Origin: Acidobacteriota bacterium
Lineage (GTDB): Bacteria > Acidobacteriota > UBA6911 > RPQK01 > JAJDTT01
DNA length: 64,000 nucleotides
Reading direction: 5' to 3'
Assembly: GCA_965263035.1 (NCBI GenBank)
Contig: OZ253580.1
Coordinates: 448,001-512,000, forward strand
In this document: in pieces, positions 52,859-60,930 of the stretch
How positions within the stretch are numbered: position 1 is the stretch's first letter
Layout of the letters: every line of letters begins with the position of its first letter
Program-made: the position numbers and the translations under genes
Notes under the pieces: generated by a model
Seen by the model: the letters and a program-made list of their open reading frames with translations, nothing else
The model's database searches: none
What the model was told of the DNA's origin: nothing

Positions 52859-52934
52859 TGGTGGAGCTGATGGGATTCGAACCCACGACCCCCTGAATGC
52901 CATTCAGGTACTCTTCCAACTGAGCTACAGCCCC
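52859..52934 (-). tRNA. tRNA-Ala(GGC)
   Basis: GGGGCTGTAGCTCAGTTGG...CCTGA-ATGGCAT-TCAGG...GGTTCGAATCC...CAGCTCCACCA; 76 nt, G3:U70 pair, encoded CCA. Confidence 0.98.
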
Positions 52935-58546: not shown

Positions 58547-59902
58547 ATGAGCCAGCCGGTTTCCGGCCCCCTGTTGCTTCAGGACCCCGCCTACGACTAT
58601 CCGGTGGTGGAAAGAGGCGAGGGAATCTACGTCTACGACGGCGCCGGCAAGCGTTTCATCGACGGCACCGCCGGAGCCGGCAACGTCATTCTGGGCCACG
58701 GACGCCGGCGGATCGCCCGGATCATGGCCCGCCAGGCCGAGACGCTGGCCTTCGTCTTCACTTCTCATTTCACCAATCCGGTGGCCGCCGAGCTGGCCGG
58801 ACGGCTGGCGGAAAAGGCGCCGGGCCAGCTGAATCATGTCTATTTCGTCTCCGGCGGCTCGGAAGGAGTCGAGACCGCGTTGAAACTGGCACGGCTCTAC
58901 CACCTGCGGCGGGGCCAGGGCCAGAAACATCAGGTCATCGCCCGTTGGAGCAGCTATCACGGAGCCACGCTGGGCGCGCTCTCGACCACCGGATCCGGAG
59001 TCCGGCACGCCTTCAGTCCCTGGCTGGCCGGGTTCGAGCACATCGACCCCTGCCTGCCACGGGCGTGTCTCTTCGACGGATGCGGGGAATCCTGCACGCT
59101 GGCCTGCGCGCGCGAGCTGGAACGGGCCATCATCCGGGCCGGACCGGAGAACGTGGCGGCCTTCGTGGCCGAACCCGTCTCCATGGCCGGCGGTGCCCCA
59201 GCCATTCCGCCGGCCGACTACTTCCCTCGGATACGGGAGATCTGCGACCGCTACGGCGTGCTCTGGATCGCCGACGAAGTGGTGACCGGATTCGGCCGGA
59301 CGGGGCGTTTCTTCGCCATCCAGCACTGGGATGCGGTTCCCGATATCGTGGCCTTCGGCAAAGGCGTCAGCAGCGGCTACCTCCCCATGGGGGGCGCACT
59401 GTTCACCGATGAGATCCGGCACGTGTTGGAAGCCAAGAAAGATGCCCTTCCCCACGTCTTCACCTACGTGAACAACCCTCTCGCCGCCCGGGTCGGGCTC
59501 ACCGTCCTGGACCTGATGGAAGAAGAGAGCATCGTGGAGAGATCGGCCGCCATGGGGGACTACCTGCTGGAGCGAGTCCGGACCCTGCGCAGCCATTCCA
59601 TGGTGGGCGACGTCCGGGGCCTGGGAATGCTGGTGGGGTTCGAACTGGTGAGCTCCCGCAAGCCCTACACCTACTTCCCCCCTAATCTGAAGGTCCATGA
59701 GCGATTGCACCGGCATCTGATCCGCCGGGGACTCTCCATCTCCGCGACGGGAGGTCCCGGCGACGGGAGCCCGGGGGACAGCGTCCGCATCTTCCCCCCC
59801 CTGGCCATCACCCGGGCGGAGATCGACGAAATCGTAGAGATGTTGGACGAGGCGCTCACGGCAGTGCGGCGCCAGATCGAGAGGGTAATGAGGCATGCGT
59901 GA
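58547..59902 (+). CDS. Class III PLP-dependent aminotransferase
   Basis: GAGG RBS; SGGSE, SYHG, AEP, DEVVTGFGRTG, FGKG, PPL. Confidence 0.93.
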   Translation: MSQPVSGPLLLQDPAYDYPVVERGEGIYVYDGAGKRFIDGTAGAGNVILGHGRRRIARIMARQAETLAFVFTSHFTNPVAAELAGRLAEKAPGQLNHVYFVSGGSEGVETALKLARLYHLRRGQGQKHQVIARWSSYHGATLGALSTTGSGVRHAFSPWLAGFEHIDPCLPRACLFDGCGESCTLACARELERAIIRAGPENVAAFVAEPVSMAGGAPAIPPADYFPRIREICDRYGVLWIADEVVTGFGRTGRFFAIQHWDAVPDIVAFGKGVSSGYLPMGGALFTDEIRHVLEAKKDALPHVFTYVNNPLAARVGLTVLDLMEEESIVERSAAMGDYLLERVRTLRSHSMVGDVRGLGMLVGFELVSSRKPYTYFPPNLKVHERLHRHLIRRGLSISATGGPGDGSPGDSVRIFPPLAITRAEIDEIVEMLDEALTAVRRQIERVMRHA

Positions 59903-60167
59903 GAGAGACTTCTACCGGGAACGGCGTGAGACCAAGACGGCTCGGCTCTCCTGTCCCCACTGCCGGGAACCGGGCGACTTCCAGGTCCGATGGCTGGTGC
60001 GGGAGAAAAAGGGCCGTCTGCCCCATCGCACCAACACCGAGGACCGGCGCCGATTCACCAACCTCCGCTCCTACATGGTCCGGGAAGACGAGTACCTCTT
60101 CTGTCCCAACCCCAGGTGCCGCAGACGCTTCGAAATCCCGAGCCAGCAGTCGGTCGTGCTCCTGTAG
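59895..60167 (+). CDS. Small zinc-ribbon protein (90 aa)
   Basis: CPHC and CPNPRC; overlaps the aminotransferase stop; its TAG is part of the REP GTAG. Confidence 0.8.
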   Translation: MRERDFYRERRETKTARLSCPHCREPGDFQVRWLVREKKGRLPHRTNTEDRRRFTNLRSYMVREDEYLFCPNPRCRRRFEIPSQQSVVLL

Positions 60168-60797
60168 ATCGGGTCGGGCGCAGGGGATTGCGCCCCCGCA
60201 CCCTCCCACACCACCGGACGTACCGTTTTCAGTATCCGGCGGTTGGAGTCACCCGAGGCTCTTTCGAGCCTCGTACAGGGCCTTTCTTTCCGGTTTCCGC
60301 CGCCGCTGAGACTTGATCTCCGCCCTTCCGGCTTGCCGGGCTCCACCCGTGGGCCTTCCATGCCGGGTCCGAGGGGCCTCCCCCCGCCCCGTTTTCGGAG
60401 GTAGTTGCGATCCCGCTGACGAGTCCACCATAGGGCCAGTCCGACTCCTTCGGTCCTTCGCTCCACCGGCATTACCCGGCTTCTTCGCTACTACGACCTC
60501 TGCTGACTTCTCAAGGGCTCTCACCCTTGAGATCTCCCCGAGTAAGGTGCTGCATCTTTCCCCCCGGGCCGCCCGGCTCTACCTGATGCGTCTGGATGGG
60601 GTTCGGGTTTCGCTGTTGCTCGCCAGCTCACCGCCCGCACCCGGCCTCACTGCCGGTTCGTGTTCCTGCGGTCGTGGGTTTGCCTTCCGCTTCCTTCAGC
60701 TTCACCTCGCGGCTACGCCTTGCGGTTCGGCTAGGGTTGGTCCCATCACCTCCCTTGGGATCTTTCATCCCTTAGATACAGCCCATGTCGGGCGCAC
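60168..60797 (-). ncRNA. ORF-less group IIC intron ribozyme (630 nt)
   Basis: 5' GTGCGCCCGACATGGG; CTTACTCGGGGAGATCT; AAGTCAGCAGAGGTCGTAGTA...GAAGGACCGAA; domain V AACCGCCGGATAC...GTACGTCCGGTGGT (60210-60244); domain VI ending CCCGAT; no RT ORF. Confidence 0.93.
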
Positions 60798-60930
60798 GAG
60801 CGGCGACTTTCTTGTCGCCGAACAGGGGGGAAAGGGGGACGGAGTCCCCACTCTACACTTTCCGGCAAGAAGAGCAGGCGGCAAGAAAGCCGCCTGTCCC
60901 AGTGGGCGACAAGAAAGTCGCCCCTCCCAG
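60798..60930 (+). repeat. BIME-like REP cluster, copy 3 (intron target)
   Basis: Three GGCG(A/G)C-N6-G(T/C)CGCC hairpins plus a GGGGAC-GGA-GTCCCC hairpin, collinear with the reverse complement of 14375-14500. Confidence 0.9.

What the first reader, a model, noticed from the sequence alone, without database searches (positions are those of the whole stretch)
60164..60820. ORF-less group IIC intron that appears to home into a GTAG REP element
Seen: a complete intron on the minus strand (GTGCG at 60797, domains V and VI, AT end at 60168) with no RT gene. Deleting it fuses the flanks into GTAG|GAGCGGCGACTTTCTTGTCGCC, a GTAG foot plus palindrome. On the intron strand the 5' exon is the hairpin GGCGAC-AAGAAA-GTCGCC followed by GCTC. 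Established: class C introns insert just 3' of stem-loops (terminators, attC) using a short IBS1. Inference: a non-autonomous ribozyme that uses the abundant REP/BIME family as landing sites and is mobilised in trans. I cannot confirm whether REP-targeting IIC introns are already described.
Basis: partly seen in the sequence, partly recalled or inferred. Interest (0 to 1): 0.85.

Follow-up and report, generated by a model that had tools for sequence, protein, structure and literature searches.

The report
ORF-less class C intron targeting palindromic repeats
This is a small self-splicing-type group II intron that has lost its own reverse transcriptase gene yet has spread to about two dozen places in the genome, always landing just after one kind of short repeated DNA hairpin; it is an unusual variant of a known kind of mobile element.

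Summary
Window 60168-60797 (minus strand) is a complete 630-nt group II intron with no RT gene (Rfam D1-D4 and DV/DVI hits).

- **Copies:** it is one of 24 in this 6.2-Mb genome: 19 intact ORF-less, 3 ORF-less copies split by IS elements, and 2 of 1848 nt that encode an intact class C RT.
- **Target:** all 24 sit directly 3' of a hairpin followed by GCTC. EBS1 GAGC pairs with this IBS1 in 23 of 23 scorable copies. In sister genomes EBS1 GAGG goes with CCTC in 8 of 8.
- **Hairpin family:** 20 of 24 sites use GGCGRC-AAGAAA-GYCGCC or a near variant. That core has 170 exact copies, arranged in tandem or mosaic arrays.
- **The "GTAG foot":** the GTAG at the junction is the tail of a conserved 90-aa ORF (CTG then the TAG stop), not a REP foot.
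- **Recent mobility:**
  - empty orthologous sites in 7 of 8 relatives;
  - a copy 1 nt different from this one interrupting an alcohol dehydrogenase gene that is intact in 8 of 8 relatives;
  - 20 of 24 copies lie in the lagging-strand-template orientation.

Mobilisation in trans is inferred, not shown. I rate it a new variant of a known kind.

The parts
60168..60797 (-). ORF-less class C (IIC) group II intron, 630 nt, 5' GUGCG ... 3' CCCGAU
   Evidence: Sequence read. Three Rfam hits. Twenty-four copies in the genome. The MFE fold shows the DV and DVI hairpins, z = -3.7.
60549..60716 (-). Domain I core, including the EBS1 stem-loop
   Evidence: Rfam RF02001 group-II-D1D4-3, 85.5 bits, E 1.1e-15.
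60618..60621 (-). EBS1 (GAGC) in the loop GCUGGCGAGCAACAGC
   Evidence: Complementary to IBS1 GCUC. GAGC:GCTC in 23 of 23 scorable copies of G000 and in 2 of 2 of G004. GAGG:CCTC in 6 of 6 of G003, 1 of 1 of G001 and 1 of 1 scorable of G008.
60453..60546 (-). Domains II-III
   Evidence: Rfam RF01998 group-II-D1D4-1, 45.3 bits.
60255..60272 (-). Domain IV cap GAGGCUC-GAAA-GAGCCUC, which replaces the RT ORF
   Evidence: Comparison with the RT-bearing copy. The same junction is present in 22 of 22 ORF-less copies.
60168..60244 (-). Domains V and VI. DV is 60211-60242; DVI has a bulged A.
   Evidence: Rfam RF00029 Intron_gpII, 40.3 bits. Fold.
60798..60801 (-). IBS1 (GCTC), the last 4 nt of the 5' exon
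   Evidence: All 24 of 24 copies are preceded by GCTC.
60801..60820 (-). Target hairpin C-GGCGAC-AAGAAA-GTCGCC-G. The closing G is the first base of IBS1.
   Evidence: The core has 170 copies in the genome, 92 of them followed by GCTC.
60167..60167 (-). IBS3 (C), the first base of the 3' exon. On the + strand it is the G of the stop codon TAG.
   Evidence: C in 23 of 24 copies and in 75 of 75 unoccupied family sites.
60835..60856 (-). Second palindrome of the mosaic, GGGGACUCCGUCCCC (60835-60849), with its GTAG tag (60853-60856)
   Evidence: A GGGG..CCCC hairpin lies upstream at 15 of 24 insertion sites, and a GTA[AGC] tag at 12 of 24.
60877..60926 (+). Two repeat units in the opposite orientation: GGCGGCAAGAAAGCCGCC+TGTC and GGCGACAAGAAAGTCGCC+CCTC. 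Together with the units above they form a BIME-like mosaic.
   Evidence: genome 508877+ and 508905+, which are window 60877 and 60905.
59895..60167 (+). 90-aa Cys-rich ORF whose stop codon TAG (60165-60167) supplies the supposed 'GTAG foot'
   Evidence: ORF listed. It is conserved, with its stop, at 84-91% nt identity in 8 of 8 same-genus genomes. The only Pfam match is a weak, sub-threshold zf_CopZ hit.

Best explanation
The feature is a non-autonomous, ORF-less bacterial class C (IIC) group II intron.

- **Origin:** it descends from an RT-encoding intron by one clean deletion of the ORF in domain IV. It has since multiplied as its own family.
- **Proposed mechanism:**
  1. The excised ribozyme, bound by the RT/maturase made by the two full-length copies, reverse-splices into single-stranded DNA at the replication fork.
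  2. It recognises a DNA stem-loop followed by GCTC (IBS1, paired with EBS1 GAGC) and C (IBS3).
  3. A nascent lagging strand primes cDNA synthesis.
- **Target:** the genome's abundant REP/BIME-like palindromic repeat carries exactly hairpin+GCTC+C in its consensus, so that repeat family is the landing pad.
- **Shown:** the ribozyme anatomy, copy number, target rule, EBS1-IBS1 covariation, empty sites, replication-strand bias, and intact cognate RT genes.
- **Inferred:** catalytic activity, action of the RT in trans, and priming by the lagging strand.
For: - **Ribozyme:** three Rfam hits, and the DV and DVI hairpins appear in the fold.
- **RT class:** the sibling RT has RVT_1 and GIIM domains, a YADD motif and no endonuclease domain. 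Its best solved relative is the GsI-IIC RT (E 1.6e-133), against 8.5e-35 for LtrA.
- **Single origin and recent bursts:**
  - 22 of 24 copies are ORF-less, and all 22 share one deletion junction;
  - five copies are identical and five more differ from them by 1-2 nt.
- **Target rule:**
  - GCTC precedes 24 of 24 copies, and C follows 23 of 24;
  - EBS1 and IBS1 match in 34 of 34 scorable copies across five genomes, with a compensatory GAGC/GCTC to GAGG/CCTC switch.
- **Empty sites:** 7 of 8 relatives lack the intron at this locus. Public contigs also join across it (run X3).
- **A new insertion:**
  - a copy 1 nt different from this one lies antisense in an ADH_N/ADH_zinc_N gene that is uninterrupted in 8 of 8 relatives;
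  - the closest relative has hairpin+GCTC|C at exactly that point, and 6 of the 8 have GCGC instead.
- **Replication bias:**
  - dnaA and the GC-skew minimum coincide at 2.87 Mb;
  - 20 of 24 copies point with the fork (binomial p 0.0015);
  - 14 of 33 co-directional family sites are occupied, against 3 of 59 anti-directional ones (Fisher p 2e-5).
- **Possible drivers:** only two close RT genes exist, and their proteins are identical. The only other RTs are 34% identical.
Against: - No direct evidence of splicing or RT binding. All runs were Logan contigs. The single exact 630-nt skip in an RNA library (X18, 1 contig, depth 3) may be a relative's empty site.
- Domain IV is the usual RT-binding region (recalled, not from a call). 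It is about 24% diverged between the ORF-less and RT-bearing copies, while the rest is about 99% identical. Recognition by this RT is therefore not guaranteed.
- Only 9 of 24 copies have a co-oriented proxy gene upstream, so the source of intron transcription is unclear.
- One copy has GTACG at its 5' end and a T at IBS3, and is probably dead.
- The gene proxies are crude: ORFs of at least 100 aa with GC3 above 0.70.
Confidence: 0.8

Rival explanations
1. An ordinary terminator-seeking IIC intron. On this view the hairpins are simply this organism's Rho-independent (I-shaped) terminators, and calling them REP adds nothing.
For: - IIC introns are described as lying after terminators 'or other inverted repeats' (Toor 2006 abstract; Waldern 2020 passages).
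- Several insertions abut gene ends within 1-11 nt.
Against: - The units have no T tract.
- They occur in 28-nt tandem arrays of up to 3-4 units and in mosaics of alternating orientation.
- The GCTC-oriented unit is antisense to the gene end it abuts, both here and at 7 further sites: 2447241, 2455916, 2572796, 3067627, 4669978, 4838477 and 6059983.
- The core has 170 exact copies.
- Y1_Tnp genes lie beside hairpins of these families.
Confidence: 0.12
2. The copies are inert relics, spread at the DNA level by recombination or together with the repeat mosaics.
For: Fifteen of 24 copies lie in the same composite repeat context, so homologous flanks exist.
Against: - The boundaries are exact at GTGCG and GAT in every copy, and the 3' exons are unrelated to each other.
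- One copy lies in a unique coding sequence.
- Occupancy is biased by replication strand.
- EBS1 and IBS1 covary across species.
Confidence: 0.04
3. One reading: the intron homes into GTAG-footed REP elements, with GTAG as part of the recognised site.
For: GTAG abuts the junction here and at one other copy. GTAG-tagged GGGGAC hairpins do exist in the genome, 23 by pattern.
Against: - Twenty-two of 24 3' exons lack CTAC.
- The GTAG here is a conserved codon plus stop codon.
- The real GTAG tag lies about 50 nt upstream and is present at only 9 of 24 sites.
Confidence: 0.03

Closest known systems
Bacterial class C (IIC) introns such as B.h.I1 and GsI-IIC
   Same: - Small ribozyme and an En-less RT. 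The RT here is closest to the GsI-IIC RT.
- Insertion just 3' of a stem-loop using a short IBS1 (Toor 2006 passages; Zimmerly & Semper 2015 passages).
   Different: - This copy has no ORF.
- The stem-loops are not T-tailed terminators but units of a high-copy palindromic repeat.
- IBS1 and IBS3 are part of that repeat's consensus.
ORF-less TeI3 introns of Thermosynechococcus elongatus (Mohr 2010, passages read)
   Same: - One ancestral ORF deletion shared by all ORF-less copies.
- ORF-less copies outnumber ORF-bearing ones.
- Good EBS/IBS pairing at the insertion sites.
- Driver RTs are encoded by sibling introns.
   Different: - Those are described as chloroplast-like (CL-type) / IIB introns (class recalled, not checked in a call) with long sequence targets. 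This one is class C with a structure-plus-4-nt target.
- The ratio here is 22:2, against 17:11 there.
- Sister species here show at least four different deletion junctions.
- Trans mobilisation was shown experimentally there, not here.
REP-targeting insertion sequences, and the P. putida KT2440 group II intron (Tobes & Pareja 2006, table read)
   Same: Mobile elements that use REPs as insertion sites. That table lists a group II intron as REP-associated in 2 of 9 copies.
   Different: - Here 23 of 24 copies are at repeated hairpins.
- The pairing rule (EBS1 with the repeat's tag) is demonstrated by covariation.
IIC-attC introns
   Same: A class C lineage specialised on a family of imperfect inverted repeats other than terminators (Zimmerly & Semper 2015 passage).
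   Different: The target here is a chromosomal REP-like repeat, not integron attC sites.

Membership tests
Group II intron, class C / IIC | Six-domain ribozyme with a conserved DV/DVI, a 5' GUGYG and a 3' AY | tested here: met
   Three Rfam hits at or above gathering score. GUGCG...GAU. The DV and DVI hairpins appear in the MFE fold.
Group II intron, class C / IIC | A class C intron-encoded RT without an endonuclease domain | tested here: met
   Absent from this copy. The two sibling copies encode a 409-aa protein with RVT_1 and GIIM domains. Its best solved relative is the GsI-IIC RT, E 1.6e-133.
Group II intron, class C / IIC | Insertion directly 3' of a stem-loop, with a short IBS1-EBS1 and an IBS3 | tested here: met
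   Hairpin+GCTC in 24 of 24 copies, and C at +1 in 23 of 24. EBS1/IBS1 covariation in 34 of 34. EBS3 was not located, and the absence of IBS2 was not tested.
Group II intron, class C / IIC | Self-splicing or protein-assisted splicing activity | not testable with these tools
   Only contigs of public runs were available.
REP / BIME repeats | A short palindromic unit at high copy number, mostly extragenic, clustered in mosaics of alternating orientation | tested here: met
   - The core has 170 exact copies.
- Tandem and inverted arrangements are listed.
- 47 of 170 units fall inside crude ORF proxies that cover 79% of the genome.
- The mosaic in the window is at 60801-60926.
REP / BIME repeats | A GTAG tag adjacent to the targeted palindrome | tested here: not met
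   The 4 nt after the stem are GCTC (92), CCTC (33) or TGTC (15). GTAG or GTAA belongs to a different, upstream hairpin, at 12 of 24 sites.
REP / BIME repeats | Association with a RAYT (Y1 transposase) flanked by the repeats | tested here: inconclusive
   - Two Y1_Tnp loci were found, one an intact 238-aa frame and one split (Pfam 35 bits).
- Both lie next to GGGGAC- or GGCGAC-type hairpins, but in direct rather than clearly inverted arrangement.
CGTC-tagged REP superfamily (Di Nocera 2013) | A terminal CGTC/TGTC/CCTC tag, a stem of 8-9 bp, a loop of 4-5 nt and a CCA tail | tested here: inconclusive
   - The CCTC and TGTC tags and a following CCA occur here.
- The main tag is GCTC, the stems are 6-7 bp and the loop is 6 nt.
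- The relative placement of tag and tail could not be compared, because only text passages of the paper were read, not its figures.
Trans-mobilised ORF-less intron family (TeI3-like) | A single-origin deletion, a cognate RT in the same genome, and insertion sites that fit EBS/IBS | tested here: met
   Same junction in 22 of 22 copies. Two intact RT genes. EBS1/IBS1 pairing in 23 of 23.
Trans-mobilised ORF-less intron family (TeI3-like) | Demonstrated mobilisation by the sibling RT | not testable with these tools
   Needs a mobility assay.

The most novel reading that the evidence does not exclude
This is a class C intron lineage that has specialised on the conserved 'tag' of its host genus's own REP/BIME repeats.

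- IBS1 is the repeat's 3' tetranucleotide.
- EBS1 has flipped between GAGC and GAGG in sister species, so the intron exploits the GCTC or the CCTC arm of the same mosaics.
- The RT ORF has been lost independently at least four times.
- In this genome the ORF-less form outnumbers its driver 11 to 1.

That would make it a bacterial LINE/SINE-like pair living on a REP system. A possible further effect is that the intron shapes REP orientation: only 19 of 75 unoccupied GCTC units face the permissive way.
Probability: 0.45. Interest if true: 0.65.

Novelty: new variant of a known kind. Interest (0 to 1): 0.55.

Why it matters
[quoted passage not shown] The well-studied proliferating case is a IIB-type family in a cyanobacterium (Mohr 2010 passages).
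- Here a minimal class C ribozyme shows the same parasitic-on-a-parasite dynamics.
- Nature has also run a retargeting experiment: a one-base EBS1 change matches a one-base change in the repeat tag across species.
- A freshly hit gene shows the full target rule.
- This gives a compact, testable system for three questions:
  - how IIC introns read DNA hairpins;
  - how non-autonomous retroelements outcompete their drivers;
  - how two kinds of genomic repeats interact.

Tried and rejected
- **Expression and splicing from public runs.**
  - All four runs laid (X16, X18, X3, X7) were contigs.
  - Intron depth exceeds flank depth by about 11-68 fold in RNA and DNA-like libraries alike, as expected for about 24 copies. 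Nothing can be said about transcription.
  - The exact 630-nt skip in RNA run X18 (1 contig, depth 3.06, side 24) is ambiguous between ligated exons and a relative's empty site.
  - The two X3 contigs carry 11-13 extra letters and match the G006/G007-type empty allele.
- **Covariation in domain IV.** Only 3 of 54 predicted pairs have double changes, so it is not decisive for RT-binding structure.
- **Gene context.** This used ORF proxies only, because no gene caller was available. I use it only for coarse statements.
- **A wider look at class C relatives in other phyla.** A 5' splice site was found by pattern in 10 of the 21 loci examined, out of 80 fetched. Nine of those have a hairpin just upstream and one has too little flank to tell. 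Some have tandem GC-rich hairpins. Repeat status in those genomes was not tested.
- **Literature.** Searches found no paper describing a class C intron family specialised on REP units. The only link found was the 2-of-9 entry in Tobes & Pareja's table.
  - The library lacks many subscription papers, and supplements are closed.
  - Dai & Zimmerly 2002, Simon 2008, Robart 2007 and Mohr 2018 were not held. They may bear on novelty; what I say of them is recalled.
  - Miura 2022 (passages) reports class C introns 'on the lagging strand' without a definition that I could read. I do not count it for or against my orientation result.
Full report
**What is there.** Read on the minus strand, window 60797-60168 runs from GTGCGCCCGA to CCCGAT.
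- An Rfam scan of the whole window at gathering thresholds gives three intron hits on that strand:
  - group-II-D1D4-3 at 60549-60716 (85.5 bits, E 1.1e-15);
  - group-II-D1D4-1 at 60453-60546 (45.3 bits);
  - Intron_gpII, covering domains V and VI, at 60168-60244 (40.3 bits against a cut-off of 40).
- The only other hit in the window is a tRNA at 52862-52934.
- The minimum-energy fold of the 630 nt shows the DV hairpin with a GAAA loop and a 2-nt bulge. It also shows DVI with a bulged A four bases before the 3' end (z = -3.7 against 20 shuffles).
- The ORFs that overlap the element are short or cross its borders, and none is an RT.
- The observation of a complete ORF-less intron is therefore correct.

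**Copies.** The window is G000:C1:448001-512000 of a single-contig genome of 6,198,070 bp and 62% G+C.
- BLAST of the 630 nt against the genome finds 24 elements:
  - 19 uninterrupted ORF-less copies of 630-632 nt, 97-100% identical to this one;
  - 3 ORF-less copies interrupted by other mobile DNA: an IS3-type transposase element of about 1.78 kb at two different intron positions, and a 4.7-kb insert with IS21-like and serine-recombinase-like frames that replaces intron positions 121-264;
  - 2 copies of 1848 nt.
- The two long copies each carry an intact 409-aa frame in domain IV, and the two proteins are identical.
  - The protein has RVT_1 and GIIM domains, a YADD motif and no C-terminal endonuclease domain.
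  - Its best match among solved structures is the GsI-IIC RT (E 1.6e-133). Three other group II intron RT/maturase entries follow (two of them titled 'Retron-type reverse transcriptase'; I recall these as class C). LtrA scores 8.5e-35.
- The only other RT genes in the genome are four copies, one of them interrupted, of an unrelated intron family at 34% identity, plus a 34-aa fragment.

**How the ORF was lost.**
- In the long copies the frame starts at intron position 538 and its TGA ends at position 1767. The last codons form the 3' strand of the DIV stem.
- In this copy the whole frame is replaced by GAGGCTC-GAAA-GAGCCTC, a tetraloop-capped helix (window 60255-60272).
- All 22 ORF-less copies have this same junction, so they share one ancestral deletion.
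- Outside DIV the ORF-less and RT-bearing copies are almost identical: 2 differences in the first 350 nt for the pair shown. DIV accounts for nearly all of the 40-56 differences.
- Among the ORF-less copies, five are identical, five more differ from them by 1-2 nt, and a second subfamily (this copy plus four others) differs internally by 1-8 nt. That pattern indicates recent bursts.

**Target rule.**
- In intron orientation, all 24 copies are preceded by a hairpin followed by GCTC. In 23 of 24 they are followed by C, and by T in one copy that also has GTACG at its 5' end.
- The loop GCUGGCGAGCAACAGC of domain I (window 60612-60627) holds GAGC, the complement of GCUC.
  - GAGC is present in 23 of 23 copies that retain this region; the 24th lost it to the 4.7-kb insert.
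- Same-genus genomes give a natural compensatory test:

| Genome | 5' exon ends in | EBS1 | Scorable copies that fit |
|---|---|---|---|
| G003 (5 RT-bearing copies and 1 ORF-less copy) | CCTC | GAGG | 6 of 6 |
| G001 | CCTC | GAGG | 1 of 1 |
| G008 | CCTC | GAGG | 1 of 1 |
| G004 | GCTC | GAGC | 2 of 2 |

- Eight further G008 junctions lie on cut contigs, so their EBS1 cannot be read. Five of them end in CCTC and three in GCTC.
- In total 34 of 34 scorable copies fit the pairing.

**The landing pad.**
- Seventeen of the 24 hairpins match GGCGRC-AAGAAA-GYCGCC exactly, and three are 1-3-nt variants of it.
- Three belong to other repeated hairpins, GGGGGTTGNAAACCCCC and GGGGACAAGGATGTCCCC.
- One is a unique hairpin inside a gene.
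- The exact core occurs 170 times in the genome. It is followed by GCTC 92 times, CCTC 33 times and TGTC 15 times, usually then by CCA.
- The base before the stem covaries with the first tag base (C..G, G..C, A..T), so the stem is really 7 bp and the first IBS1 base is its closing pair.
- Units form 28-nt tandem arrays of up to 3-4 units.
- They also form mosaics: a GCTC unit on one strand, a C-rich spacer, a GGGGAC..GTCCCC hairpin often preceded by GTAG or GTAA, then TGTC and CCTC units on the other strand.
  - The window holds exactly such a mosaic at 60801-60926.
  - Fifteen of 24 insertion sites have the upstream GGGG..CCCC hairpin, and 12 have its GTA[AGC] tag.
- Against crude ORF proxies that cover 79% of the genome, only 47 of 170 units lie inside one, and no proxy spans any intron.
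- Two Y1_Tnp (IS200-like) loci were found, one an intact frame and one split. Both lie beside hairpins of these families. Whether they are RAYTs for these repeats is open.
- The tags and CCA tail recall the CGTC-tagged REP superfamily, whose tag is said to vary to TGTC or CCTC and whose tails fit CCA (Di Nocera 2013, passages). Stem and loop lengths differ, and I could not compare layouts.
- All 75 unoccupied exact GCTC sites have C at +1. Hairpin, IBS1 and IBS3 are thus all supplied by the repeat's consensus.

**The 'GTAG foot'.**
- On the + strand the junction reads CTG TAG | intron.
- TAG is the stop of a 90-aa Cys-rich ORF (59895-60167).
- The gene and its stop are conserved at 84-91% nucleotide identity in all 8 same-genus genomes.
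- Only 2 of 24 copies have CTAC as the 3' exon start.
- The foot is therefore a coincidence. The tag that matters is GCTC.

**Evidence of mobility.**
- At the orthologous spacer, 7 of 8 relatives have no intron.
  - G003 reads TGAG|GAGCGGCGACTTTCTTGTCGCC.
  - G007 and G006 have 11-15 more bases between the stop and the unit.
  - G002 and G001 carry GAGC-tagged units with different stems (GGCGTG/GGCGCG type), G004 a GGCGGT-type unit, and G005 no unit next to the stop.
  - G008 has an intron in the same orientation but 6 nt further from the stop, on a contig that ends there.
- Public contigs show both states. Two X3 contigs join across the intron with 11-13 extra letters. One X16 contig has the intron next to the 11 extra letters.
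- The copy at C1:436206-436835 differs from this one by 1 nt.
  - It lies antisense at about codon 317 of a 365-codon frame (GC3 0.81) with ADH_N and ADH_zinc_N domains.
  - That gene is uninterrupted in 8 of 8 relatives.
  - In G007 (98% identical there) the site reads GGCCATC-AGGTC-GATGGCC-GCTC|C on the intron strand.
  - Six relatives have GCGC instead of GCTC, and G003 has GCTC after a weaker stem.
  - A fortuitous hairpin+GCTC+C was therefore enough, which shows that the rule is structure plus 5 bases, not REP identity as such.

**Replication.**
- dnaA lies at 2,872,067, and the cumulative GC-skew minimum is at 2.86 Mb, with the maximum at 5.86 Mb.
- Twenty of 24 introns point in the direction of fork movement, meaning their sense strand is the lagging-strand template (binomial p 0.0015).
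- The bias is not inherited from the repeats. Among exact GCTC sites, 14 of 33 co-directional ones are occupied, against 3 of 59 anti-directional ones (Fisher p 2e-5).
- This fits what is described for En-less introns. The RmInt1 abstract in the listing (PMC8914252) says it reverse-splices mainly into single-stranded DNA at the lagging-strand template.

**Recurrent ORF loss.** The ORF-less copies of G001 (648 nt), G003 (657 nt, which keeps the first four and about the last eight codons) and G008 (650 nt) each have a different DIV junction from G000's. That makes at least four independent deletions in one genus.

**Comparison with what is known.**
- This is a member of class C by every sequence criterion I could test.
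- It behaves like the ORF-less TeI3 family of T. elongatus (single deletion, proliferation, sibling driver RTs), but with a IIC ribozyme and target logic.
- IIC introns after 'other inverted repeats' and at attC sites are known.
- REPs as IS targets are known, and a 2-of-9 REP association was listed for a P. putida group II intron.
- I found no description of three things, within the limits of the held library:
  - a class C family whose IBS1 and IBS3 are the repeat's own consensus;
  - an EBS1 switch between the two arms across species;
  - a 22:2 excess of ORF-less copies.

**Verdict.**
- I file it as a new variant of a known kind.
- Confidence in the mechanism as stated is 0.8. The trans action of the RT and the catalytic competence of the ribozyme are the untested steps.

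Noticed in passing
G000:C1 copies at 529488-531335 and 2572796-2574643, compared with the ORF-less subfamilies: Polymorphisms in D1 (GCAGT/GCAGC, ACGCATC/ACGTACC) and DVI (GCGCCCGA/GCACTCGA) are shared crosswise. Each RT-bearing copy matches a different ORF-less subfamily, although all ORF-less copies share one deletion. This suggests recombination or template switching between autonomous and non-autonomous copies.
   Followed up: partly
G000:C1:3067627-3070027 and 3923178-3925592: The same IS3-type element (388-aa rve-like frame, about 1.78 kb) has inserted into two different intron copies, at intron positions about 264-276 and about 345-350.
   Followed up: no
G000:C1:5180457-5185638: One intron copy has positions 121-264 replaced by a 4.7-kb insert with IS21-like (IstA/IstB-type) frames and a 710-aa serine-recombinase-like frame. 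A weak Bac_DnaA-type hit at 5180883-5181170 falls in this insert.
   Followed up: no
G000:C1:983841-984845, 5053528-5056758, 5537537-5538541 and 5842122-5843126: A second, unrelated group II intron family is present. Its RT is 34% identical to the class C RT. There are four copies, one of them split. A conserved 41-nt D3-like segment of it is also matched in many larger genomes of the same family.
   Followed up: no
G000:C1:2482816-2483529 (-) and 3477727-3478461 (+): Two IS200-like Y1 transposase loci, the second split into two frames. Each lies next to GGGGAC- or GGCGAC-type hairpins, and an IS110-like fragment lies beside the first.
   Followed up: partly
genome-wide: Unoccupied GCTC-tagged repeat units are themselves biased in orientation. 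Only 19 of 75 face the direction of fork movement (binomial p 2e-5).
   Followed up: partly
window 60165-60167 and the relatives' loci L045, L046: Compared with G007 and G006, and with a public contig that has the intron plus 11 extra letters, this genome lacks 11 bases (rc of CATGTCGCCGC) of the 3' exon next to the intron. That suggests a small deletion after insertion, or a polymorphic spacer.
   Followed up: partly
G000:C1:56917-56967 and 1998664-1998765: Two isolated fragments: 51 nt of the intron 5' end at 94% identity, and a 34-aa piece of the RT C-terminus at 79% identity.
   Followed up: no
window 52862-52934 (-): A tRNA gene (Rfam, 65 bits), unrelated to the finding.
   Followed up: no
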